Shown in pieces: positions 1,128 to 16,234 of a stretch of DNA of 64,000 nt. Under the pieces are notes generated by a model, which ran no database searches, was not told the DNA's origin, and saw only the letters and a program-made list of their open reading frames with translations. Both the position numbers and the translations under genes were made by a program. This DNA comes from Shigella phage vB_SdyM_006. The stretch lies in sequence record MK295204, one strand, 5' to 3'. How positions within the stretch are numbered: position 1 is the first letter of the stretch; every line of letters begins with the position of its first letter.

Positions 1128-1203
1128 TGGTACACCTACGGGAATTCGAATCCCGGTTACACGCTCGAAAGGCGTGGGTCCTAGACCACTAGACGATAGG
1201 TGC
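1128..1203 (-). tRNA. tRNA-Glu (anticodon UUC)
   Basis: Manual cloverleaf on reverse complement: 7-bp acceptor stem, T-loop TTCGAAT, anticodon loop CTTTCGA, 3' CCA encoded. Confidence 0.8.
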
Positions 1204-1210
1204 ATTAAAA

Positions 1211-1302
1211 TGGAGGAGAGTATGGGATTCGAACCCATGGAACAGCGTAACTGTCCAACGGTTTTCAAGACCGTCTCAATAATCCATCTCTGACAACTCT
1301 CC
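1211..1302 (-). tRNA. tRNA-Ser (anticodon UGA), type II with long variable arm
   Basis: Acceptor GGAGAGT/ACTCTCC, anticodon loop CTTGAAA, long variable arm, T-loop TTCGAAT, CCA encoded. Confidence 0.8.
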
Positions 1303-1309
1303 AATATAA

Positions 1310-1627
1310 TTAAAACAGTAGACTATAAACAGTACCTTTACAATCTATAGGTTGTGTTTTTGAATATTCTTTAAATAGATTTAAATAACCAATTTCTTCA
1401 GGTTCCCATTGTCCTTCTAAACCATAACATGAACAATGTGAGCCGTTAACTTCCCAAAATATATCATTACTATCTTTGAAGATTACAGTAGCATACCCAG
1501 AATAATCTTCATAATCGTAATATGCTAAAATGATTTCTTTGTCATTAAGTGAATCCATAGGGATTTGGAATTCATGACAGATGTCTTCTTTTGAAGTAAA
1601 CAGTTCCATAAACACATTAGTTTTCAT
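1310..1627 (-). CDS. hypothetical protein
   Basis: Track ORF 1310..1720 trimmed to internal ATG at 1625-1627 (MKTNVF...) because the 5' extension overlaps tRNA-Asp. Confidence 0.45.
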   Translation of the reverse strand: MKTNVFMELFTSKEDICHEFQIPMDSLNDKEIILAYYDYEDYSGYATVIFKDSNDIFWEVNGSHCSCYGLEGQWEPEEIGYLNLFKEYSKTQPIDCKGTVYSLLF

Positions 1628-1650
1628 ATCAATATCCTCAAAATTAATTT

Positions 1651-1726
1651 TGGCGGTCTTACCGAGAATCGAACTCGGTGCTGTTCCGTGACAGGGAACT
1701 ATGTTAACCAGGTACACCATAAGACC
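1651..1726 (-). tRNA. tRNA-Asp (anticodon GUC)
   Basis: Acceptor GGTCTTA/TAAGACC, anticodon stem GTTCC/GGAAC with loop CTGTCAC, T-loop TTCGATT, CCA encoded. Confidence 0.8.
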
Positions 1727-1919
1727 TTAAAAATGTACCCATCCGGCTTTCCAGTCTGGTGAAGGGTTGTCACCTCTAGTTTAAACCTGCTAGTCAAGTA
1801 ATAATTGCATATCGTCCAATTATCAAAACCGTCTAGGTTATATTACACCACTTCCTAGAATACCGTCTAAGCGGACTTGATCGACGTAGATTACACCATA
1901 TACGTCTGATTGTGGAATT

Positions 1920-1994
1920 TGGAGCGATCTACGGGTATCGAACCCGTATCTTCTGGGTGGAAACCAGAAATAATAGCCATTATACTAAGATCGC
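1920..1994 (-). tRNA. tRNA-Gly (anticodon UCC)
   Basis: Perfect acceptor stem GCGATCT/AGATCGC, anticodon loop TTTCCAC, T-loop TTCGATA, CCA encoded. Confidence 0.85.
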
Positions 1995-2615
1995 ATATTT
2001 ATTAATAAATCTTCTTGCTTGGGTATGACTTAATCCTATATGTTTAGCAAATTTATTTAAGTTACCTCTTATTGAAATATCAAATGATTTTAATATTTCT
2101 AATCTATAATTAATTTCGTCTTTTGACAATGTAGAGGCATTATTAATAGAAATTTTGTTTTTAGATATATCCGAATGTCTCTTATTTTTAAAACCAAACG
2201 AATTTTTCTTTTTGCTAAAATCATATAATCCGAGTCTAAGTCTTTTCTTAAATGTATTAACTTGTTTACTTATAGTTAATTTAGATTTTGGCAATGAATT
2301 TATATAATCCCAACCACCTTCACCACCAACTTTTAAATTATATGTATTTTTGCTTTTAACAAATTTTTCTGTAACTATTTTGGCTTCATGTATAAACATG
2401 TCATACTTATTTTTATGAAATTTTAAAATAGTTTTTTCAAAATTTTCTTTGCCATATTTTTCTATGGCTTTTTTCAAAATCTTACCTGAACCAAAATATC
2501 CATCTTCTAAATCTTTGGTTTTATGAACACCTATATAAATTTTATTATTTATTTTATTTTTAATTTTGTATGTATAATAAAACATTATAGCCTTATTTAT
2601 CTTTTGGTACTCCAT
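1980..2615 (-). CDS. GIY-YIG homing endonuclease (Seg-like) embedded in the tRNA cluster
   Basis: N-terminal GIY-YIG motif (FYYTYKIKNKINNKIYIGV...GSG), basic C-terminal region; T4 segB sits in the equivalent tRNA region; 3' end overlaps tRNA-Gly by 15 nt. Confidence 0.6.
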   Translation of the reverse strand: MEYQKINKAIMFYYTYKIKNKINNKIYIGVHKTKDLEDGYFGSGKILKKAIEKYGKENFEKTILKFHKNKYDMFIHEAKIVTEKFVKSKNTYNLKVGGEGGWDYINSLPKSKLTISKQVNTFKKRLRLGLYDFSKKKNSFGFKNKRHSDISKNKISINNASTLSKDEINYRLEILKSFDISIRGNLNKFAKHIGLSHTQARRFINKYAILV

Positions 2616-2779
2616 TCTTTATTAGTTGCTTTATTAACAGCAGTAGAATAAGAATTTTTAATATCTTCTGTAACAGAATAGCCAGTTAACATAGTAGAAA
2701 TTAAAATAACATATCCAAGCATTAATAAAATACAAGATAAAAATCCTGCAATAATAAGAATTGTACCTAAAGTAGTCAT
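2597..2779 (-). CDS. small hydrophobic (membrane) protein
   Basis: Track ORF 2597..2890 trimmed to internal ATG at 2777-2779 (MTTLGTILIIAGFLSCILLMLGYVILI...) because the 5' extension overlaps tRNA-Met/Ile. Confidence 0.35.
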   Translation of the reverse strand: MTTLGTILIIAGFLSCILLMLGYVILISTMLTGYSVTEDIKNSYSTAVNKATNKEWSTKR

Positions 2780-2798
2780 ATTGTTCTCACAAATTATT

Positions 2799-2874
2799 TG
2801 GTGACCCACCATGGAATCGAACCATGCTCCAACGCTTATGAGGCGTTCGCTTTCAACCAGTAAGCTAGAGGGCC
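2799..2874 (-). tRNA. tRNA with CAU anticodon (Met, or Ile if lysidine-modified)
   Basis: Anticodon stem AACGC/GCGTT with loop CTCATAA, T-loop TTCGATT, CCA encoded; one T-T mismatch in acceptor stem. Confidence 0.7.
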
Positions 2875-2881
2875 TTGCAAT

Positions 2882-2966
2882 TGGTGGCACCGGGTAGACT
2901 CGAACTACCGAAGGCCGAAGCCTGGAGATTTACAGTCTCCTGTCATTGCCGCTAGACTACGATGCC
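2882..2966 (-). tRNA. tRNA-Tyr (anticodon GUA), type II
   Basis: Acceptor GGCATCG/CGGTGCC, discriminator A, anticodon loop CTGTAAA, long variable arm, CCA encoded. Confidence 0.8.
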
Positions 2967-3011
2967 TTTTCTTATCAATAACGACTAAAAATAATCGTTA
3001 TTAATCAGAAT

Positions 3012-3088
3012 TGGTACACACTACTGGATTCGAACCAGTGACCTACGGTTTAGAAGACCGTTGCTCTATCCATCTGAGCTAAGCATGC
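3012..3088 (-). tRNA. tRNA-Arg (anticodon UCU)
   Basis: D-stem GCTC/GAGC, anticodon stem ACGGT/ACCGT with loop CTTCTAA, T-loop TTCGAAT, CCA encoded; three G-U pairs in acceptor stem. Confidence 0.75.
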
Positions 3089-3089
3089 A

Positions 3090-3380
3090 TTATAAGTACT
3101 GTTTAATCAGTTCTTCGTTATTTTTAAAAAGAATAAAAATATTATCACGAACTTCAGTATCTGAGATATGCCATTTCATAGCATCAATTAAAATGTCTTT
3201 TGGGATCATATTATATAAATTATTTAGTAAAGCAATATTATTTATATCAATATCAACTTCAAATAATTCAAAAATACAACACGAAATAGAATCATAAAAA
3301 TCTTTAATGTCTATTTCATACTTAGACAAATTATTTATAAATTCTGTTTTAGCTTGTTCTGGATTATGTGCTTTAAACAT
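3090..3380 (-). CDS. hypothetical protein
   Basis: ORF in track, same strand as neighbours, no recognisable motif. Confidence 0.45.
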   Translation of the reverse strand: MFKAHNPEQAKTEFINNLSKYEIDIKDFYDSISCCIFELFEVDIDINNIALLNNLYNMIPKDILIDAMKWHISDTEVRDNIFILFKNNEELIKQYL

Positions 3381-3402
3381 TTTTATTCCTATTATTCTAA
3401 AA

Positions 3403-3477
3403 TGGCAGGCTCTGTAGGAATCGAACCCACGTCTTCGGATTTGGAATCCGGTATTCTACCGACTGAACTAAGAACCT
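3403..3477 (-). tRNA. tRNA-Trp (anticodon CCA)
   Basis: Acceptor AGGTTCT/AGAGCCT, anticodon loop TTCCAAA, T-loop TTCGATT, CCA encoded. Confidence 0.75.
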
Positions 3478-3478
3478 T

Positions 3479-3562
3479 TGGCGGGCAGTGTAGGATTCGA
3501 ACCTACGTCGTCAAATGACACGGATTAACAGTCCGCTGCTTAATCCACTCAGCCAACTACCC
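3479..3562 (-). tRNA. tRNA with GUU (Asn) anticodon but type-II architecture (13-nt variable arm)
   Basis: Acceptor GGGTAGT/ACTGCCC, discriminator G, 3-bp D-stem, anticodon stem GCGGA/TCCGT with loop CTGTTAA, variable-arm hairpin GTCATTTGAC, CCA encoded. Confidence 0.6.
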
Positions 3563-3898
3563 AATAATTTTTGCATCTTCTGAATAACTAGAAATACTAC
3601 CCCATTCTGAAGTATTAAATGAAACTTTATTTCCGTTTTTGAACTCTATAACTATATTTATATTGTCAACAGAAATCTCATTATCAGATGATTCTCTTTC
3701 TGAGGTTTTTAAATATGTATCCATAGTTTCAATAGTCACTTCTTCTGTTTGAAGAAGAGGTGAATAGTACTCAGCTAAATAAACTTTATTTACAATATCA
3801 CCAAAAATAGTTTTAGCAATATCAGTTAATTTAGTTGTTTCTTTTAATAAATGTTTCATAATATGTCCTTCACATGGAGTAGAAATTAATAATAACAC
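3557..3898 (-). CDS. hypothetical protein
   Basis: ORF in track; 3' end abuts tRNA. Confidence 0.45.
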   Translation of the reverse strand: MLLLISTPCEGHIMKHLLKETTKLTDIAKTIFGDIVNKVYLAEYYSPLLQTEEVTIETMDTYLKTSERESSDNEISVDNINIVIEFKNGNKVSFNTSEWGSISSYSEDAKIIG

Positions 3899-3922
3899 AA
3901 ATAATATGAAAGCATTTCTGTT

Positions 3923-4279
3923 TTAATATTTGTGTTTTGTTTTTCTAACTAATGTAACCTGAAAAGGTGTTTCCATACAATATGTATGGACAACAGAATC
4001 TTTGTCACGATTATGATAATATGGATAATAAGCTACACGATAACCTTCACGCGTAAATCCTAATAGAACGCCAACACTTAGTCCTTTACCGCCACCTATA
4101 GATGAGTAAGAGACAATATCACCAGGACTAATATGATTACCGATCATATCGTGTTTAGGTGTCCCTTGCGTCAACTTGTGGTGCATTTCGTATAGTTCAG
4201 GGTCTGTCTTTAAAATTTCAGAAAAACCTAATTGGTTCTCTGCCTTAAACAGAGAAAAAGCTTCTTGAATTGTCATCAC
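3923..4279 (-). CDS. hypothetical protein
   Basis: ORF in track; a 43-codon upstream ORF (4276..4406) overlaps its start in an ATGA arrangement. Confidence 0.5.
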   Translation of the reverse strand: MMTIQEAFSLFKAENQLGFSEILKTDPELYEMHHKLTQGTPKHDMIGNHISPGDIVSYSSIGGGKGLSVGVLLGFTREGYRVAYYPYYHNRDKDSVVHTYCMETPFQVTLVRKTKHKY

Positions 4280-4416
4280 CAGCCCTCGTCTTCGCGTTCT
4301 TGATAATTATAATAAGTATCACGTTCTTCGCCGTTAGATTCTTTTTTGGATTGATTTTCAAAAAAACGTTGTAGTTCTCTTGCTTCTCGGATTTCTTTTT
4401 CTGTCATAGTATATCC

Positions 4417-4791
4417 TTACTCTATCTCTTTATGATCGCCCACTTTATATTTTTCTAAAGCTTCATCTTTAGATTTAGCTTCAATTTCGTATAAAATAGG
4501 AGTGTACCATTCGCCACAAAAAACCGAATCGTTTGAGTCTATTAAATCAGCATGTTTATCAATATACTCTTTGATATCGTCTGGGCTATCTAAAAATTCT
4601 AGACACTCTTCTTCGTATCCAACCAATTCAATAAAATGTTCTAATACTGCAATATAGTATTTTTTATTAAGGTGACTAGTATTTAATCTAAATACTCTTC
4701 CTGTTGGAGGAACAACAGGTCGTATTTCCATAAGACCTTTATCAATCATTTCTTTAATGATTGGAAGATCTTGGATTTCTGGCCGTTGCAT
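4417..4791 (-). CDS. hypothetical protein
   Basis: ORF in track. Confidence 0.5.
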   Translation of the reverse strand: MQRPEIQDLPIIKEMIDKGLMEIRPVVPPTGRVFRLNTSHLNKKYYIAVLEHFIELVGYEEECLEFLDSPDDIKEYIDKHADLIDSNDSVFCGEWYTPILYEIEAKSKDEALEKYKVGDHKEIE

Positions 4792-9920: not shown

Positions 9921-9935
9921 AAGTCCACTCCTTTA

Positions 9936-9943
9936 TAAATACA
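9936..9943 (+). promoter_or_regulatory. T4-type late promoter TATAAATA (for gene 53 operon)
   Basis: Exact TATAAATA 29 nt upstream of gene 53 start. Confidence 0.6.
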
Positions 9944-9971: not shown

Positions 9972-10523
9972 ATGATTTTTTCCTTTTTTGATCCTGTAGA
10001 ATATAGAGGAAAACTAACAACCAATATATTCAGAAACTATAAAGTTTATATAAAAAGAGTTTTATCTAATTATAAACTTAAAACATACTATATTTCTGGC
10101 TCACCGAGACCAGAAGAACTTGCTAATGCATTATATGGTAATCCACAACTATATTGGGTCTTATTAATGATCAATGACAATTATGACCCATTCCATGGCT
10201 GGATTAAAGGACAAGAAGCCTCATATCAGAGCGCTATACAACGCTATGAGAACGCAGGAGGACAACAAGTACTATACCATATAGATAATAATGGTGAACG
10301 TTATTATAACCTAGTAGAAGATCCTGATAACCCAGGCCTTTGGTACGATAAAGGCGATAAAGATATGGAACACTTGCAATATAATGGGCCTTTAGCTGCT
10401 ATAGATATTCTTGAAGATTCAATTCTTAAAAACGAAGAACGACGAGAAATAAAAATAATTGACCCTAAAGAAATTCAATCTTTTATTAGTGCAATTATTA
10501 GAGAGATGGAAAAAACACTATGA
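9972..10523 (+). CDS. 53: baseplate wedge protein gp53
   Basis: Strong match to remembered T4 gp53 (FFDP.EY...IFRNYK.Y.KR...Y.L.TYYI.GSPRPEELANA.YGNPQLYWVLLM.NDNYDP). Confidence 0.85.
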   Translation: MIFSFFDPVEYRGKLTTNIFRNYKVYIKRVLSNYKLKTYYISGSPRPEELANALYGNPQLYWVLLMINDNYDPFHGWIKGQEASYQSAIQRYENAGGQQVLYHIDNNGERYYNLVEDPDNPGLWYDKGDKDMEHLQYNGPLAAIDILEDSILKNEERREIKIIDPKEIQSFISAIIREMEKTL

Positions 10524-12250
10524 ATATCCAAAATTCTTATATCCAACCATTTTTTGGTGTTGTTGAAGATCGAATGGACCCTAAGAAATTAGGACGTGTC
10601 AGAGTTAGAATATATGGAGATCACCCTTTTTCTAAAACTAAAGGTGACGTGGCTGGTTTAGAAACTGAAGATTTATTATGGTTCCAAGTATTATTACCAG
10701 CAACATCTGCTACTGAATCCGGTGTTGGTAATTCTCCAACTGGTATATTAGAAGGCTCTTCAGTTTTTGGCCTATATTTAGACAAATATAAAACTTCAGG
10801 AATTGTTTTAGGGACTTGGGCTGGGATAAGAACAGAAATGCCTAACTACACAGAAGGTTTTTCCGACCCAAATCAACAGTACCCTACTAAACTTGGGAAT
10901 GATTTAAATGATTTATCTCTAGGTGGAAGAATAGGTAAAGAATCTATTGTTAACGTAATTCAAAATGATAATAGAGAAACTGCACCGAACCCATCAAATA
11001 TACCTGCAGGCGAAGAACCTGAAAATAACAGCCCAGAATTGACAATAGAAAAAATGTTACAACGTGACGAAGGCTTACGTTTACGTTGGTACCCAGATAA
11101 TGGATATGCATCTATTGGTATAGGACATTTAATTAAAGCCCAGAAAACATCAGACCCAGATTTAATTAATAAATGGATTTCAGAACTTGTCGGAAGAAAA
11201 GTAACAAACGGAACCATAACAATGGATGAATGTATGTCCATTTTTAAATCTGATATTAAAAAAGTTAAAGATGGAATAGTTAAGCACCCTACTATTGGTC
11301 CGATCTACAAAAAATGTAATGCTTCTAGGAAAATGGCTTTAGAGAACATGGCATATCAAATGGGACTAGGTGGATTAGCTAAATTTAAAAAAACTTTGAG
11401 ATACATGGAAGAAGAAAAATGGGAAGACGCTTATATAAATCTCCAACAATCACTTTGGTTTAGACAAACTAAAGGACGAGCATCAAGGGTTTCTTTGATT
11501 ATTCGTAATGGTAATTTAGAATCATACGGCGAAAAGACCCCTAGTGCCGCTAGGGCGTTCTCTTTACAAAAGAATATAAACATAGAACCTGAAGATCCTT
11601 TTGTCCCTAGCGACTCTAGGGTTATGTTTGAAGAACCTAAAACAGATTATAATAGCCAATACCCATATAATAAAACCTTTGGAACAGAATCAGGTATGAT
11701 TCAAGAATTTGACGATACACCTGGTGCCGAACGTTATAGACTAACACATACTTCAGGAACATACCAAGAAATTTCTCCAGATGGAAGAAATGTACAAAAA
11801 ATAATTGGGGACAATTATAAAATAGTCCAACAAGACGACCATATATTAGTCCAAGGCGATGTTAAACTTGTTATTGGCGGTAATTCTAATGTTTACATTA
11901 TGGGGTCATTAAACCAAACAATTGATGGAAGTATAAATCAAACTGTTAGAGGAAATGTTGTTCAACATGTAGAAGGTAATGTTAAAGCGACAATAGACCA
12001 AACGGCCGATATTCTTGTTAAAGAAGAAGCTATGATAACAGTTGAAAAAGATTTAACAGTTAATGCAAATCAAAATGCGGAAATTAATGTTAAAGAAAAA
12101 GCCACGGTTAATGCAGAAAATATTTCTGTTAACGCAGAGAAGACTATGAAGTTTAAAGCTGAAGATGTTGATTTTAGTGCAGTTAAAACATTTTCTGTTG
12201 ATTCTGGTGTTCTTACTAAAATTACAGGTGCTAATGTACAGGTGGGATAA
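10520..12250 (+). CDS. 5: baseplate central spike / tail lysozyme gp5
   Basis: N-terminal GVVEDRMDPKKLGRVRVRIYG, central lysozyme-like region, C-terminal repeated beta-helix pattern; 576 aa (T4 gp5 575 aa). Confidence 0.85.
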   Translation: MNIQNSYIQPFFGVVEDRMDPKKLGRVRVRIYGDHPFSKTKGDVAGLETEDLLWFQVLLPATSATESGVGNSPTGILEGSSVFGLYLDKYKTSGIVLGTWAGIRTEMPNYTEGFSDPNQQYPTKLGNDLNDLSLGGRIGKESIVNVIQNDNRETAPNPSNIPAGEEPENNSPELTIEKMLQRDEGLRLRWYPDNGYASIGIGHLIKAQKTSDPDLINKWISELVGRKVTNGTITMDECMSIFKSDIKKVKDGIVKHPTIGPIYKKCNASRKMALENMAYQMGLGGLAKFKKTLRYMEEEKWEDAYINLQQSLWFRQTKGRASRVSLIIRNGNLESYGEKTPSAARAFSLQKNINIEPEDPFVPSDSRVMFEEPKTDYNSQYPYNKTFGTESGMIQEFDDTPGAERYRLTHTSGTYQEISPDGRNVQKIIGDNYKIVQQDDHILVQGDVKLVIGGNSNVYIMGSLNQTIDGSINQTVRGNVVQHVEGNVKATIDQTADILVKEEAMITVEKDLTVNANQNAEINVKEKATVNAENISVNAEKTMKFKAEDVDFSAVKTFSVDSGVLTKITGANVQVG

Positions 12251-14313
12251 TGAATTATTACGATAAAATAGATGAAGTTGTCTCAAACTTCGCCCATCCA
12301 TGTGAAGGTGAAGTGCCAGATGGGTTCTATAGACGTGTTAAGTGGGAACTGTATAATCCATCAAAAGAAAATAAAGGCCCAGGAAATGGCGAAGAGTGGG
12401 ACACAGAGATAATTAAAATAGGGACTAGATTATACGATCAAAACCCTTTTGGGCATAAATCTGAAGAATTTCCAGAACCGCCAGTAGAAGGTGAAGGAGA
12501 AAAATGTAAATTCTGGTCTAAAAAAATAGGTGTTTGTTTTACAACTCAAAAAGAATTATCTGATTATGTAGAATCTATTGGGTCCAAACTTTTACCTGGT
12601 AATGATTGGTATGGTGCGGATTTATCAAAATCACATTTATTTAAAACAGCAAATGAATATAACATGTATCGTATAGAAAATGCCGGCGGGACTTGGACTA
12701 AATTAGGTCCTTCTATAGATAAACGAACTATGTTAATGGTTGATAAAGATTATAATATTTTAATTAATTATGATGGGGTTGAAGGGTCTAGGTCTGCTTA
12801 CTTAAAACACTATGAAGATAAACCTTGTACTTATGTTGGTATTCGCTTAAATCTTGATATTGATTTAAGTGTCCCGGGTATACCAGAATCAGAACCACCT
12901 ACAATAGGAAGTTTACCACCAGAATTACCAGCATTAATATTTGCTGCTAGAAGTTTACCCGCAATAGGTTGTATTCCATTTAAGGCTAAATTTCCTTATA
13001 ATGGGTTATCACAAGCAATAGTTGAAGCATGGAATGAATCAAGGCGTTCATTTAAATTAATGTGGGCCAATATTCCAGGACTACCTGAAGGTGAAGGTTC
13101 AATTTGGAGTACAATGTATTCTGGCGTGTCTATTGCTATGGAAGAACTTGGTAATGCGGCTTTAAGTATGTGCCAATACGTGCAACAAATGGCATGGAAC
13201 GCATTTAAAGAAATTATTTCGCAGGCTCTTAATATAGTTGGTGCTGGTTGGGATTTATTAAAATCATTTATCCCTAAAGTTACTATTCTTGGAATAACTT
13301 TTGATATTGAAGATATTTGTACTTCTGGTGATGGTTTACAAAAATTAAAAGATGCTTTTTCTAATTTTGATACAGAAAAAATAATAGAAAGTATATATGC
13401 ATTTATTGGAAGTGCTTACGAATATTCTGTAGAATATGTAAAAGTATTTTCTCGTGACTTAATAGATGCGTTAACAGATTTATATGATTATTTGTGGTAT
13501 GTGTTGATGACAGCAGGTGTTGCTTTATGTAAGACCCTTGTTAATTTAGCAGAAATCTGGTCTATCCCACCATGGATTCCAAACCCTTTATGGAATGTAG
13601 TTATTGCTGTAAAAGAGTTAATGAAACAAATAGAACCTTTAGATATGATTCTTAAAGGTGGATTTCCTGGTTTTACGGCATCAGATTTGTATTATATGGT
13701 TGAACGAGAAGTTAAAAAAGTTATAGACGAAACTTATGCAAAAATAGAATCATTTAAAAACCAAGCCATAGCTTTATGGGAACAAGTAAAAGAAGCTAAA
13801 GATAATTGGCAGCGAGAATCAATAGGATTTAAACAATATCTTAAAGGCATGTATGGTGCTGTAACTGAAGAGCTCACAAAACAAAAAGAAGCCTTAGTTA
13901 AACAGGCTAAAGATATATACGAATCATTATTGGCAAAATATGAAGCATTAAATATAAATATAGATACACTCAAAGCTTCTGTTTCTAATGTCTTAGAACT
14001 TGCATTAAATGAATTAAGACAGCTTCCTTTAGTGGCTCAAATAGAACAACTTTTATCATTAATAGGTTCATCTCTAGATGAAATGATAACAACTATTAAA
14101 AATGGTATAACTGGCGCACAAACGTTATACAAAAATTTTACAGATGGAAGCAGATCATTAAAAGATATATGTAAGTACATATTCAGCCAAATATCTACAT
14201 TATCATTGAGTAAAGTAACACAATGGATTAATAAATTATTGAGCATATTTGGATTAGAAATAAAGTTTCCTGAACTAGAATTGTGTATACCATACGTAAA
14301 ATACGAGGAATAA
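12250..14313 (+). CDS. large hypothetical protein at the spike-tip position (where T4 has genes 5.1-5.4)
   Basis: 687-aa ORF whose start overlaps the gp5 stop (TAATG) and whose stop abuts gene 6; Cys/His N-terminus, hydrophobic helices near residues 400-450, coiled-coil C-terminal third. Confidence 0.7.
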   Translation: MNYYDKIDEVVSNFAHPCEGEVPDGFYRRVKWELYNPSKENKGPGNGEEWDTEIIKIGTRLYDQNPFGHKSEEFPEPPVEGEGEKCKFWSKKIGVCFTTQKELSDYVESIGSKLLPGNDWYGADLSKSHLFKTANEYNMYRIENAGGTWTKLGPSIDKRTMLMVDKDYNILINYDGVEGSRSAYLKHYEDKPCTYVGIRLNLDIDLSVPGIPESEPPTIGSLPPELPALIFAARSLPAIGCIPFKAKFPYNGLSQAIVEAWNESRRSFKLMWANIPGLPEGEGSIWSTMYSGVSIAMEELGNAALSMCQYVQQMAWNAFKEIISQALNIVGAGWDLLKSFIPKVTILGITFDIEDICTSGDGLQKLKDAFSNFDTEKIIESIYAFIGSAYEYSVEYVKVFSRDLIDALTDLYDYLWYVLMTAGVALCKTLVNLAEIWSIPPWIPNPLWNVVIAVKELMKQIEPLDMILKGGFPGFTASDLYYMVEREVKKVIDETYAKIESFKNQAIALWEQVKEAKDNWQRESIGFKQYLKGMYGAVTEELTKQKEALVKQAKDIYESLLAKYEALNINIDTLKASVSNVLELALNELRQLPLVAQIEQLLSLIGSSLDEMITTIKNGITGAQTLYKNFTDGSRSLKDICKYIFSQISTLSLSKVTQWINKLLSIFGLEIKFPELELCIPYVKYEE

Positions 14314-14314
14314 A

Positions 14315-16234
14315 ATGGATTTAATTAAGAAACAAATAAACAGTATTCCTGAAGTATACACTTCAGCTACTTTTGACGAAATAAAAAATGATTGGATTAA
14401 CTGGTTAAGAGGGCAAGATGAATTTAAAGACTATGATTTTAAAGGTTCTAGATTAAATGTTCTTTTAGATTTATTATCTTATAATGTCCTTTATATCCAA
14501 CAATTTAGTAATTCTGCTTTATATGAATCGTTTATAAGAACAGCTTCTTTAAGGTCTTCAGTTGTTCAGGCTGCACAAGACATGGGATATTTTCCATCTT
14601 CTATGACTGCCGCTGAATGTTCTATAATGTTAGAATGTACGCATAAATTAAAACCACAAAGTATTAAAATCCCAAGAGGTACTAAATTTTTAGCTTCATC
14701 TAAAGATGGCCCAACTCAGCCTTATAACTTTGTGGTAAAAGAAGACGTTAACGTTGTAAAAAGTAAAGACGACAAATATTACCCTATAATTAACTTAGTC
14801 CAAGGGCGTGTTGTTAGAACTGAATTAGAATACGACCCAAATCAACAGATTTTGATTCGTGATAAATTTATGGATAGACACACAGTTAGGGTTATGGTTA
14901 ATGGTGTTAAATGGGAAGACTGGACAGAAAAATCAATTGTTAATATCTCCGGAACAAGCCATGTGTTTTATATGAGAGAAACAATTGACGAATACACCGA
15001 ACTATTTTTTGGTGAAGGCCAAGCAGATTATTCTATTGTTGATGGAAGTTTACAAAGTAATTATATTGGTGGGTTAAAACCTGTTGCTGGAAGTAATATT
15101 GTAATTGAATATATTAGAACAGATGGCGGCAAAGCTAATGGGTCTATTAACTTTAGCTATGCTGATACATTGCAATACGTTTCTGTTGTTAATATAATAG
15201 AAAATTATGATGAAACAGAAGATTATATTGGCGCTTTTGGTGGCGGTGATCCTGAAGATATCGAAAGAATTCGTGAACTTGGCCCTATAAAACGAGAATC
15301 TCAACGCCGTTGTGTAACAGCAACAGATTATGAGTCATTCGTTTCAGAAAGATTTGGGCCTATTGTCCAGGCTGTTCAATGTTTTACAGATAGAGATAAA
15401 CCTGGTTATGCATTTATTGCTATAAAGCCAAAAGAAGGTTTAAGATTATCATCTGTGCAAAGAGAAGATATTCAGAATTACCTTAAAGAATACAATATTT
15501 CTACCATAACACCTAGTATTATGTCTCCTAATTATATGTTCTTAAAACATAAAGTTAAAGTTACATATTCTATGAACAAACTTTCTGAATCTGAGCAATG
15601 GTTAAAAGGTAAAATCATTGACCAAATTGACACATATTATAAAGATGAAGTAGAAATATTTAACAAAAGTTTTCATAAATCTAAAATGTTAACTTATGTT
15701 GATGATGCTGATATTTCTATATTAGGTTCTTCTGCCGAAATAACAATGGTTAGAGAACTAGAAAATTTCTTTAAAACTCCTATGTCTGGTGTAAAATATA
15801 ATAATAAAATATTACCACGTGGTCTTATTAGTAATGTATTTGAATACACAGTTAATGATGAGCTATCGTATGGTGTTAGATTAGCTTCAACTGAGCCTAA
15901 AGGCGATTTAAAAGAAGGTAAAATTGTTATAGGTCCATTTAGACAAGGAGATATTAAAATAAGTCCTTATTTGGGAACTGATTTTGAAAAATTAAAAACA
16001 ACAGATACAAGAAATAGTTATTTTGTTGTTGGTAAAATAATCCATGAAGAGGATTATATCTATTGGGACCTTGGACAATTAAATGTGACAAGTGATAAAT
16101 TTTTAGTCCCGAGTATAGAATTATACGGAACTCCAGGAGATTCTAATATCTTTACAAAAGATGGGTCATTAATTGTATTTGAAAATAATTTAAGACCCGA
16201 ATACACAGAAATTATTATGGAGCCTATAGCTTAA
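14315..16234 (+). CDS. 6: baseplate wedge protein gp6
   Basis: Strong N-terminal and central match to remembered T4 gp6 (DYDF.GSRLNVL.DLL.YN.LYIQQF.N.A.YESF.RTA.LRSSVVQAAQD). Confidence 0.85.
   Translation: MDLIKKQINSIPEVYTSATFDEIKNDWINWLRGQDEFKDYDFKGSRLNVLLDLLSYNVLYIQQFSNSALYESFIRTASLRSSVVQAAQDMGYFPSSMTAAECSIMLECTHKLKPQSIKIPRGTKFLASSKDGPTQPYNFVVKEDVNVVKSKDDKYYPIINLVQGRVVRTELEYDPNQQILIRDKFMDRHTVRVMVNGVKWEDWTEKSIVNISGTSHVFYMRETIDEYTELFFGEGQADYSIVDGSLQSNYIGGLKPVAGSNIVIEYIRTDGGKANGSINFSYADTLQYVSVVNIIENYDETEDYIGAFGGGDPEDIERIRELGPIKRESQRRCVTATDYESFVSERFGPIVQAVQCFTDRDKPGYAFIAIKPKEGLRLSSVQREDIQNYLKEYNISTITPSIMSPNYMFLKHKVKVTYSMNKLSESEQWLKGKIIDQIDTYYKDEVEIFNKSFHKSKMLTYVDDADISILGSSAEITMVRELENFFKTPMSGVKYNNKILPRGLISNVFEYTVNDELSYGVRLASTEPKGDLKEGKIVIGPFRQGDIKISPYLGTDFEKLKTTDTRNSYFVVGKIIHEEDYIYWDLGQLNVTSDKFLVPSIELYGTPGDSNIFTKDGSLIVFENNLRPEYTEIIMEPIA

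What the first reader, a model, noticed from the sequence alone, without database searches (positions are those of the whole stretch)
12250..14313. Large 687-aa ORF translationally coupled between gp5 and gp6, at the spike-tip (5.1-5.4) position
In T4 only small genes (including the ~97-aa spike-tip protein 5.4) lie between gene 5 and gene 6. Here a 687-aa ORF fills that slot. Its start overlaps the gp5 stop (TAATG) and its stop abuts gene 6, so it is co-expressed with the baseplate. It has a Cys/His-containing N-terminus (HPCEG, KCKFW, GVCF), a hydrophobic helical segment (WYVLMTAGVALCKTLVNLAEIWSIPPWIPNPLWNVVIAVKELM) and a long coiled-coil C-terminal third. This is the profile of an enlarged spike-tip or ejected membrane-interacting protein, analogous to extended PAAR-cargo proteins of contractile injection systems.
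Basis: partly seen in the sequence, partly recalled or inferred. Interest (0 to 1): 0.75.

Follow-up and report, generated by a model that had tools for sequence, protein, structure and literature searches.

The report
Oversized phage tail-spike tip protein
In this T4-like Proteus phage, the small protein that normally caps the cell-puncturing needle is replaced by a 687-residue protein with a fold seen nowhere else; a 2025 preprint already suspected this swap for phage RB43, and comparative genomics here supports it.

Summary
The ORF is real: window 12250-14313, 687 aa, TAATG overlap with the gp5 stop, gp6 starting 1 nt after its stop, and under purifying selection. The window is a Proteus Bragavirus. 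The protein is the orthologue (42% identity, full length) of RB43 orf205w, which a 2025 preprint tentatively assigned to a larger density at the RB43 spike tip.

New support found here:
- The family (215 phage records) and gp5.4 (1,471 records) look mutually exclusive.
- The last ~60 residues of gp5 co-vary with tip type (48% identity within carriers, 14% between types); the rest of gp5 does not.
- Seven SG1-group isolates have a 95-97% T4-identical backbone in which exactly [gp5 C-terminal ~88 codons + this ORF] replaces [gp5 C-terminus + 5.1-segC-5.3-5.4].

It is not a PAAR protein (no profile or fold match) and not the tape measure (gp29 is present). AlphaFold gives a confident model (pLDDT 87) with no structural neighbour outside the family. 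Presence in virions, docking on gp5 and membrane activity remain untested; my linked-chain docking model failed. Verdict: a new member of a recently proposed non-PAAR spike-tip family; moderate interest.

The parts
9934..9941 (+). T4-type late promoter motif TATAAATA, 31 nt upstream of the gp53 ATG; the likely start of the gp53-gp5-ORF late transcript
   Evidence: No other copy lies between here and the ORF start. The motif count over the whole window is not above chance (21 vs 17.6 expected), so the assignment rests on position only.
9972..10523 (+). gp53 baseplate wedge gene
   Evidence: Pfam Phage_gp53, E = 2.3e-67
10520..12250 (+). gp5 central spike (OB domain, lysozyme, C-terminal triple-stranded beta-helix)
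   Evidence: Pfam Gp5_OB 4.4e-46, Phage_lysozyme, Gp5_trimer_C; phrog_430
11984..12247 (+). gp5 C-terminal beta-helix end (about aa 489-576, ending ...DSGVLTKITGANVQVG): the proposed docking platform, which co-varies and co-transfers with the ORF
   Evidence: Last 60 aa: 48% mean identity within carriers vs 14% between tip types. The SG1/T4 breakpoint falls at gp5 codon ~502, which corresponds to about window gp5 aa 489.
12240..12245 (+). Shine-Dalgarno-like AGGTGG, 4 nt before the ORF's ATG, inside the last gp5 codons
   Evidence: read directly
12250..14313 (+). 687-aa ORF: member of phrog_5296, orthologue of RB43 orf205w, putative non-PAAR spike-tip protein
   Evidence: PMC12407873
12250..13119 (+). 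N-terminal mixed alpha/beta region (aa 1 to about 290) carrying invariant C18, C193 and C241; candidate gp5-binding domain (inference)
   Evidence: AlphaFold secondary structure and pLDDT; invariant columns; no Pfam family at E <= 1
13450..13677 (+). Most conserved block (aa 401-476): a moderately hydrophobic helix, the invariant turn W437-x-x-PP-x-x-PNP, a second helix, and the GxFPxFT motif
   Evidence: conservation 0.72 and Kyte-Doolittle analysis; invariant columns
13678..14085 (+). Long amphipathic helical hairpin (aa 477-612); least conserved region and the source of the weak tape-measure and apolipoprotein-like hits
14272..14301 (+). C-terminal beta-strand (aa 675-684, ELELCIPYVK) carrying C679; inferred to pair with strand 239-247, which carries C241
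   Evidence: AlphaFold strands; C241 and C679 are lost together in the two divergent members
14315..16234 (+). gp6 baseplate wedge gene, starting 1 nt after the ORF's stop
   Evidence: five Gp6 Pfam domains

Best explanation
The ORF most likely encodes a virion protein that sits on the flat C-terminal end of the gp5 beta-helix trimer, in the place where T4 carries the 97-aa PAAR-type protein gp5.4. That makes it a large, non-PAAR spike tip.

Proposed steps:
1. It is transcribed late with gp53 and gp5, and translated by coupling to gp5 (inferred).
2. Its N-terminal alpha/beta region, closed by the C-terminal strand, docks on a lineage-specific gp5 end (...TKITGGxVQVG) (inferred).
3. On sheath contraction it is the first phage component driven through the outer membrane, and it is released into the periplasm with the spike (inferred by analogy with the periplasmic location shown for the P2 spike).
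4. The helical two-thirds, with its conserved hydrophobic helix-PP..PNP-helix hairpin, may then engage the periplasm or inner membrane (speculative).

Shown here: orthology to RB43 orf205w, absence of gp5.4, and co-variation and co-transfer with the gp5 tip. Not shown: presence in virions, stoichiometry, docking, or any membrane activity.
For: 1. Orthology. 42% identity over 100% of the length to the RB43 CDS directly after RB43 gp5. That CDS is orf205w, for which PMC12407873 reports that gene 5.4 is absent and that a larger density sits at the spike tip in a 17.7 A map.
2. Complementary distribution. 215 records carry the family and 1,471 carry gp5.4. A chimeric query finds 1,688 records, and all 60 best carrier records, spanning every carrier lineage, show a single place. 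A gp5.4 profile finds nothing in the window, the whole phiP4-3 genome or the other 14 carrier loci searched (best E = 1.4), against 186 and 141 bits for the positive controls.
3. Co-variation. Across 14 carrier and 6 gp5.4-type gp5 proteins, residues 1-380 are as similar between types (49%) as within them (53% and 48%). The last 60 residues are 48% identical within carriers and 14% (maximum 20%) between types.
4. Natural cassette swap. SG1 vs T4 DNA is 97.1% identical up to gp5 codon ~502, unrelated for 2.3 kb, then 95.4% identical from 10 nt before gp6. Seven isolates carry the junction, and about 500 Tequatrovirus records stop exactly at it.
5. The pair travels together. The gap between gp5 and the ORF is 5 nt or less, or an overlap, in the 14 carrier phage loci compared. 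The pair is kept in Cronobacter S13 although gp53 and gp6 are no longer adjacent. It is also kept in two divergent metagenomic members (29-31% identity; gaps of 6 and 4 nt), including one behind a 389-aa gp5 without lysozyme; both upstream genes end ...FTGGTV(S/V)VG.
6. A late-promoter motif lies upstream of gp53 and none lies before the ORF.
Against: - No mass spectrometry or other direct evidence places any family member in virions (literature searches).
- The RB43 map is 17.7 A and C6-symmetrised. The authors write 'possibly', and their co-expression with the gp5 beta-helix fragment failed.
- My linked-chain AlphaFold model of the ORF with 3x gp5 C-terminus did not form the gp5 trimer (pLDDT 21-43, pTM 0.59), so it gives no docking support.
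- A 78-kDa body is the opposite of a sharpening tip.
- Co-variation and co-transfer with the gp5 end would also be expected for a dedicated folding chaperone of that beta-helix.
Confidence: 0.72

Rival explanations
1. A dedicated, non-virion assembly factor. The protein would help the carrier-type gp5 C-terminal beta-helix to trimerise or fold and then leave, as T4 gp57A or gp38 do for fibres. The extra RB43 tip density would then be something else.
For: - Co-variation and co-transfer with the gp5 C-terminus fit a specific chaperone equally well.
- Recombinant complex formation with the gp5 fragment failed in the preprint.
- No virion proteomics was found.
Against: - Carriers lack any gp5.4, so the spike would be uncapped.
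- RB43 does show additional tip density, into which the orf205w model fits.
- At 687 aa, with about 57% mean column identity and a fold of its own, it is large for a chaperone of an ~90-residue segment.
- T4's own beta-helix fragment folds without such a factor (PMC12407873).
Confidence: 0.12
2. An internal tail or ejection protein. It would be a tape-measure-like helical protein carried in the hub cavity or tube lumen, bound to gp5-gp27, and expelled after the spike to act in the periplasm or inner membrane, rather than sitting on the outside of the tip.
For: - Weak hits to tape-measure PHROGs over aa 250-660 (phrog_1272, E = 5.6e-9).
- Some pipelines annotate homologues as 'tail length tape measure'.
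- The helical region gives generic matches to pore-forming toxins and translocators.
Against: - A normal gp29 tape measure (573 aa) is present in the hub cluster of the closest relative.
- The hits are confined to apolipoprotein-like amphipathic helices. True tape measures found by the profile carry PF10145, which the ORF lacks.
- The partner that co-varies with it is the distal end of gp5, not the hub-proximal part.
- The SG1 swap leaves the sequenced flanks (gp53, gp5 residues 1-502, gp6) T4-type, so no change in those neighbours was needed; the hub and tube genes were not compared.
Confidence: 0.1
3. An extended PAAR-cargo protein: a cryptic PAAR domain at the N-terminus fused to a toxin or effector, as in T6SS PAAR-Rhs proteins.
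For: It occupies the gp5.4 position and is far larger than a bare tip.
Against: - Pfam PAAR_motif and NCBIfam T6SS_PAAR_dom both match T4 gp5.4 (PAAR_motif above its cut-off, the NCBIfam model far below its cut-off) but not the ORF, even at E <= 1 for the N-terminal 290 aa.
- No invariant histidine exists for a His3Cys site.
- No enzyme or toxin domain was detected.
Confidence: 0.03

Closest known systems
RB43 orf205w (putative spike-tip protein; Mattenberger et al. 2025, bioRxiv, PMC12407873)
   Same: - Full-length orthologue: 42% identity over 100% of the length.
- Same position directly after gp5, replacing genes 5.1-5.4.
- The genome lacks gp5.4.
- Same architecture: an alpha/beta N-terminus followed by an all-helical remainder.
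- The partner gp5 has one extra beta-strand and the ...TKITGGxVQVG ending.
   Different: - Different genus and host (Bragavirus on Proteus, vs Pseudotevenvirus on E. coli).
- Here AlphaFold, given a 36-sequence alignment, is confident (pLDDT 87, pTM 0.79), whereas the preprint calls its own model low-confidence.
- The preprint names only RB43, RB16 and Lw1. The family is also found in Dhakavirus, a phage recorded as Moonvirus (KM16), SG1-group phages recorded as Tequatrovirus, Slopekvirus, and phages of Providencia, Morganella, Pectobacterium, Yersinia, Pantoea and Cronobacter.
T4 gp5.4 and PAAR-repeat spike tips (PDB 4KU0; Pfam PF05488)
   Same: - Same genomic slot and the same inferred site of action: one protein capping the flat end of the trimeric spike.
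- The two are distributed in a mutually exclusive way, as functional equivalents would be.
   Different: - No sequence or fold similarity.
- 687 aa against 97 aa.
- No His3Cys metal site.
- Largely helical, and bulky rather than a sharp cone.
T6SS/eCIS PAAR proteins with C-terminal cargo (e.g. PAAR-Rhs)
   Same: Same concept: a large payload carried on the very tip of a contractile-injection spike and delivered first into the target.
   Different: No PAAR adaptor domain and no recognisable toxin or enzyme domain. This is an analogy of position only.
Phage tape-measure proteins (T4 gp29; Pfam PF10145-containing tape measures)
   Same: Long amphipathic helices that give weak profile hits.
   Different: It lacks the PhageMin_Tail domain, the phage has its own gp29, and the gene context and co-varying partner are different.
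Alpha-helical pore-forming toxins and T3SS translocators (AhlC, YaxB, XaxA, SipB/IpaB)

Membership tests
RB43 orf205w-type putative spike-tip family (phrog_5296) | Full-length sequence homology to RB43 orf205w | tested here: met
   phrog_5296 E = 0 over residues 1-685 of 685; 42.1% identity over 100% of the length to the RB43 CDS at 107851-109923
RB43 orf205w-type putative spike-tip family (phrog_5296) | Gene lies immediately downstream of gp5, in place of genes 5.1-5.4 | tested here: met
   TAATG overlap in the window; a gap of 5 nt or less in the 14 carrier phage loci compared, and 6 and 4 nt in the two divergent metagenomic members
RB43 orf205w-type putative spike-tip family (phrog_5296) | The genome has no gp5.4 orthologue | tested here: met
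   tblastn and a profile HMM on the window and on the complete genome of the 98%-identical relative find nothing; all 60 best-ranked carrier records have a single place for the chimeric query
RB43 orf205w-type putative spike-tip family (phrog_5296) | N-terminal ~220-residue alpha/beta mix followed by an all-helical remainder | tested here: met
   AlphaFold DSSP: strands and helices up to about residue 290, then helices, plus one C-terminal strand
RB43 orf205w-type putative spike-tip family (phrog_5296) | Partner gp5 with the carrier-type C-terminus (one extra strand, divergent last 60 residues) | tested here: met
RB43 orf205w-type putative spike-tip family (phrog_5296) | Extra density at the spike tip in the virion | not testable with these tools
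   Reported only for RB43, at 17.7 A
PAAR / gp5.4 spike-tip family | PAAR-repeat domain detectable by profile (Pfam PF05488, NCBIfam NF033420) | tested here: not met
   T4 gp5.4 scores 39 bits against a cut-off of 27. The ORF has no hit, and its N-terminal 290 aa have no hit at E <= 1. NCBIfam gives nothing.
PAAR / gp5.4 spike-tip family | Conical beta-structure fold | tested here: not met
PAAR / gp5.4 spike-tip family | Buried metal site made of three His and one Cys | tested here: not met
   No invariant histidine. There are four conserved cysteines instead, two of which are lost together in divergent members.
PAAR / gp5.4 spike-tip family | Binds the flat C-terminal end of the trimeric spike beta-helix | tested here: inconclusive
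   The linked-chain AlphaFold construct failed to fold the gp5 trimer. The genetic evidence points to this interaction but does not show it.
Tail tape-measure proteins | Tape-measure domain (e.g. PF10145), and being the phage's only tail-length determinant | tested here: not met
   No PF10145 hit. The closest relative has a 573-aa gp29 in the hub cluster. True tape measures match only the amphipathic region, aa 470-640.
T4 gp5.1 / gp5.3 | Sequence homology to the T4 genes that occupy the same slot | tested here: not met
   gp5.1 gives no significant alignment. gp5.3 gives only a 23-residue match at 48% identity in the helical region.

The most novel reading that the evidence does not exclude
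The protein may be more than a passive cap. It could be a spike-delivered membrane-active device. After the spike crosses the outer membrane, the helical two-thirds (the conserved hydrophobic helix-PP..PNP-helix hairpin plus the long amphipathic hairpin) would open and insert into, or anchor at, the inner membrane. There it would nucleate the DNA-translocation channel, doing for a phage what T3SS translocators or alpha-pore-forming toxins do. In T4 this step is still unassigned. Because the tip arrives as a plug-in cassette together with its gp5 end, phages could exchange envelope-penetration strategies by a single recombination.
Probability: 0.2. Interest if true: 0.8.

Novelty: new member of a known kind. 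Interest (0 to 1): 0.5.

Why it matters
How contractile phages finish crossing the envelope after the outer membrane is pierced remains an open question, and so far spike tips have been small PAAR or HxH apex structures.

About 13% of the phage records that carry either this family or gp5.4 replace the 97-aa PAAR tip with a 78-kDa protein of a unique predicted fold. That implies a different way of meeting the cell envelope.

The SG1-group chimeras provide a ready-made genetic system. They have an almost T4-identical backbone that differs in exactly the [gp5 end + tip] cassette. The function of the large tip can therefore be tested with T4 tools, for example host range on deep-rough LPS mutants, where T4 lacking gp5.4 fails.

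On a practical level, the 'tail length tape measure' labels that appear in new genome records for this family are wrong.

Tried and rejected
1. Docking test. I built a single chain (ORF + 3x gp5 residues 485-576, joined by 30-residue GS linkers) with a 13-lineage paired alignment plus 18 unpaired members. The gp5 parts stayed at pLDDT 21-43 and pTM was 0.59. The trimer never formed, so the result is uninformative and I do not count it against docking.
2. PDB sequence search: only E = 0.16 noise.
4. Tape-measure reading: rejected. gp29 is present, and the hits are confined to apolipoprotein-like helices shared with true tape measures.
5. Cys/His metal-finger N-terminus: rejected as stated, because only C18 of the quoted residues is conserved.
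6. Transmembrane helix: rejected by hydropathy.
7. Homology to T4 gp5.1: none. Homology to gp5.3: a 23-residue match too weak to interpret.
8. Virion proteomics. Five literature look-ups found no mass spectrometry on any carrier phage. The one T4-like Klebsiella virion proteome I read is from gp5.4-type Jiaodavirus phages.
9. Wider family. An exhaustive profile search of 1.84 billion representatives found only 8 full-length representatives and no relatives outside T4-like contexts.
Full report
**Observation.** The ORF is exactly as described: window 12250-14313 on the + strand, ATG start, 687 aa. Its ATG shares one base with the gp5 stop codon (ggaTAATGaat). Its TAA ends at 14313, and gp6 starts at 14315. 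An AGGTGG Shine-Dalgarno-like hexamer sits 4 nt upstream, inside the last gp5 codons. Pfam identifies the neighbours as gp53, gp5 (OB + lysozyme + beta-helix), gp6 and gp7. A late-promoter motif, TATAAATA, lies 31 nt before gp53, with none between it and the ORF, so the ORF should be expressed on the late gp53-gp5 message. Against the closest relative the ORF shows 88 synonymous and 11 non-synonymous codon changes, so it is a gene under purifying selection.

**Source and family.** The window is a Proteus T4-like phage, 98% identical at the protein level to phiP4-3 (Bragavirus). The ORF matches phrog_5296, a family of unknown function, end to end. Homologues occur in 215 phage records, 213 of them covering at least 80% of the query. 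They include Bragavirus, Dhakavirus (Bp7, SP18), KM16 (recorded as Moonvirus), the SG1 group, Pseudotevenvirus (RB43, RB16, Lw1, GAP161), Slopekvirus (KP15), and unclassified phages of Providencia, Morganella, Pectobacterium, Yersinia, Pantoea and Cronobacter. The family is narrow. There are 54 clusters at 90% identity, all at least 42% identical to the query and 664-703 aa long apart from one 580-aa hit covering 84% of the query. An exhaustive profile search of 1.84 billion representatives found only 8 full-length representatives.

**What is already known.** Mattenberger et al. 2025 (bioRxiv, PMC12407873) report the following:
- RB43, RB16 and Lw1 lack gene 5.4.
- The 5.1-5.4 slot in those phages holds orf205w, about 690 aa, with residues 1-220 a mix of alpha and beta and the rest helical.
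- Co-expression with the gp5 beta-helix fragment failed.
- A 17.7 A, C6-symmetrised map shows 'a larger protein' at the RB43 spike tip.
- A low-confidence AlphaFold model fits that density, and the tip is 'possibly encoded by' orf205w.

The window's ORF is 42% identical over its full length to the RB43 CDS that directly follows RB43 gp5, so it is the orthologue.

**Independent tests of the spike-tip link.**
1. Mutual exclusivity. T4 gp5.4 has homologues in 1,471 records, reaching as far as Campylobacter and jumbo phages. A chimeric query (ORF + gp5.4) matches 1,688 records, close to 215 + 1,471. All 60 best carrier records, covering every carrier lineage, show a single matching place. tblastn and a six-sequence gp5.4 profile run without filters find nothing in the window, the complete phiP4-3 genome or the other 14 carrier loci searched (best E = 1.4). 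The positive controls score 186 and 141 bits.
2. Co-variation. I compared 14 carrier and 6 gp5.4-type gp5 proteins:

| gp5 region | Within carriers | Within gp5.4 type | Between types |
|---|---|---|---|
| residues 1-380 | 53% | 48% | 49% |
| last 60 residues | 48% (min 28%) | 31% | 14% (max 20%) |

   Carrier gp5 proteins have one extra strand, and most of them end ...DSGxLTKITGGxVQVG.
3. A natural swap. SG1 gp5 is about 99% identical to T4 gp5 up to roughly residue 490 and then becomes carrier-type. At the DNA level, SG1 is 97.1% identical to T4 up to gp5 codon ~502, unrelated for 2.3 kb, and 95.4% identical again from 10 nt before the gp6 ATG. The exchanged unit is therefore [gp5 C-terminal ~88 codons + ORF] in place of [gp5 C-terminal ~74 codons + 5.1 + segC + 5.3 + 5.4]. 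Ten records from seven isolates carry this junction, and about 500 Tequatrovirus records align only up to the breakpoint. The swapped gp5 segment lies inside the 484-575 fragment that is sufficient to bind gp5.4 in T4.
4. The pair stays together. It is kept when the surrounding synteny breaks in Cronobacter S13. It is also kept in two divergent metagenomic members (29-31% identity), one of them behind a 389-aa gp5 without lysozyme. Both upstream genes end ...FTGGTV(S/V)VG.

**Anatomy.** AlphaFold with a 36-sequence alignment gives mean pLDDT 87.4 and pTM 0.79. An independent BFVD model of a 49%-identical member superposes at TM 0.85-0.87. The regions are:
- Residues 1 to about 290: a mixed alpha/beta region.
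- Residues 296-670: helical. Within this, residues 401-476 are the most conserved block: a moderately hydrophobic helix, an invariant W-x-x-PP-x-x-PNP turn, a second helix, and the GxFPxFT motif. The long hairpin at 477-612 is the least conserved part.
- Residues 675-684: a beta-strand, which I infer pairs with strand 239-247.

**What it is not.** It is not a PAAR protein. PAAR profiles hit T4 gp5.4 but not the ORF, no PAAR fold is found, and there is no His3Cys site. It is not the tape measure. The relative has a 573-aa gp29. The weak tape-measure hits and the occasional 'tape measure' annotations come from apolipoprotein-like amphipathic helices, which true PF10145 tape measures also contain.

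**Most likely mechanism (confidence about 0.7).** The protein is a late, translationally coupled virion protein that caps the gp5 beta-helix in place of gp5.4. It probably docks through its N-terminal alpha/beta region plus the C-terminal strand, is driven first through the outer membrane, and is released into the periplasm with the spike. Whether its helical body then acts on the inner membrane is speculation; I put that at about 0.2. The rival readings are a gp5-end-specific chaperone (0.12), an internal ejection protein (0.10) and a cryptic PAAR-cargo protein (0.03).

**Limits.** There is no virion proteomics for any carrier phage. My linked-chain AlphaFold docking test failed technically. 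I had no access to model coordinates, so I could not test the cysteine cluster or look for an interface.

**Verdict.** The ORF is a new member, in a new genus, of a family proposed in 2025 to be a non-PAAR spike tip. The comparative results here (strict complementarity with gp5.4, co-variation with the gp5 end, and the SG1/T4 cassette swap) do not appear in that preprint, and they strengthen the proposal. Interest is moderate, at 0.5.

Noticed in passing
L012 (Salmonella phage SG1) 1734-4028 vs L004 (T4) 2967-4571: The left breakpoint of the SG1/T4 cassette exchange lies about 110 bp downstream of T4 oriE (record position 79355 vs about 79465). The replaced T4 segment contains the segC homing endonuclease. 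Either feature could make this spot a recombination hotspot that drives tip-cassette exchange.
   Followed up: partly
L013 (Cronobacter phage S13) 208-4055: The gp5-ORF pair is kept with its TAATG overlap, but gp53 is not upstream and gp6 is not downstream. Small reverse-strand genes follow instead, so the baseplate gene order is broken around the pair.
   Followed up: no
phage records NC_055712.1 (phT4A) and MW021751.1 (Cronuts); BFVD A0A193GZA2, A0A7T3TJJ6, A0A7T3TJK5: Some carriers have an N-terminally truncated homologue (485 aa in phT4A, matching query residues 193-685) or a homologue split into two CDSs. These could be sequencing or annotation errors, or natural variants lacking the N-terminal domain.
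   Followed up: no
window 13953-13960 (+): A second TATAAATA late-promoter motif lies inside the ORF, about 355 nt upstream of gp6. It could be an internal late promoter for gp6 onward. The motif count across the window is no higher than chance (21 vs 17.6).
   Followed up: no
window 13915-13983 (ORF aa 556-578) vs T4 gp5.3 aa 25-47: A 23-residue stretch is 48% identical between T4 gp5.3 (56 aa, unknown function) and the ORF's helical hairpin (pairwise E = 4e-4; tblastn E = 0.05). It may be chance in helical sequence, or a vestige linking the T4 5.x genes to the large ORF.
   Followed up: no
window ORF aa 18, 193, 241, 679 (nt 12301-12303, 12826-12828, 12970-12972, 14284-14286): Four conserved cysteines. 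C18 and C193 are invariant in all 31 sequences. C241 and C679 sit in similar G/L-C-I-P-F/Y strands and are lost together in the two divergent members. This suggests two pairs (disulfides or shared ligands), but I could not inspect model coordinates.
   Followed up: partly
window 1128-3562 (- strand): A cluster of nine tRNA genes: Glu, Ser, Asp, Gly, Met, Tyr, Arg, Trp and Asn. The closest relative, phiP4-3, annotates eight; its set includes Pro but not Trp or Asn. The tRNA complement therefore differs between near-identical phages.
   Followed up: no
public annotations of family members (e.g. PQ657805.1, PQ657798.1, PP889462.1): Pipeline annotations label this family 'tail length tape measure protein'. 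That is a mislabel caused by amphipathic-helix similarity, and these phages have their own gp29.
   Followed up: yes
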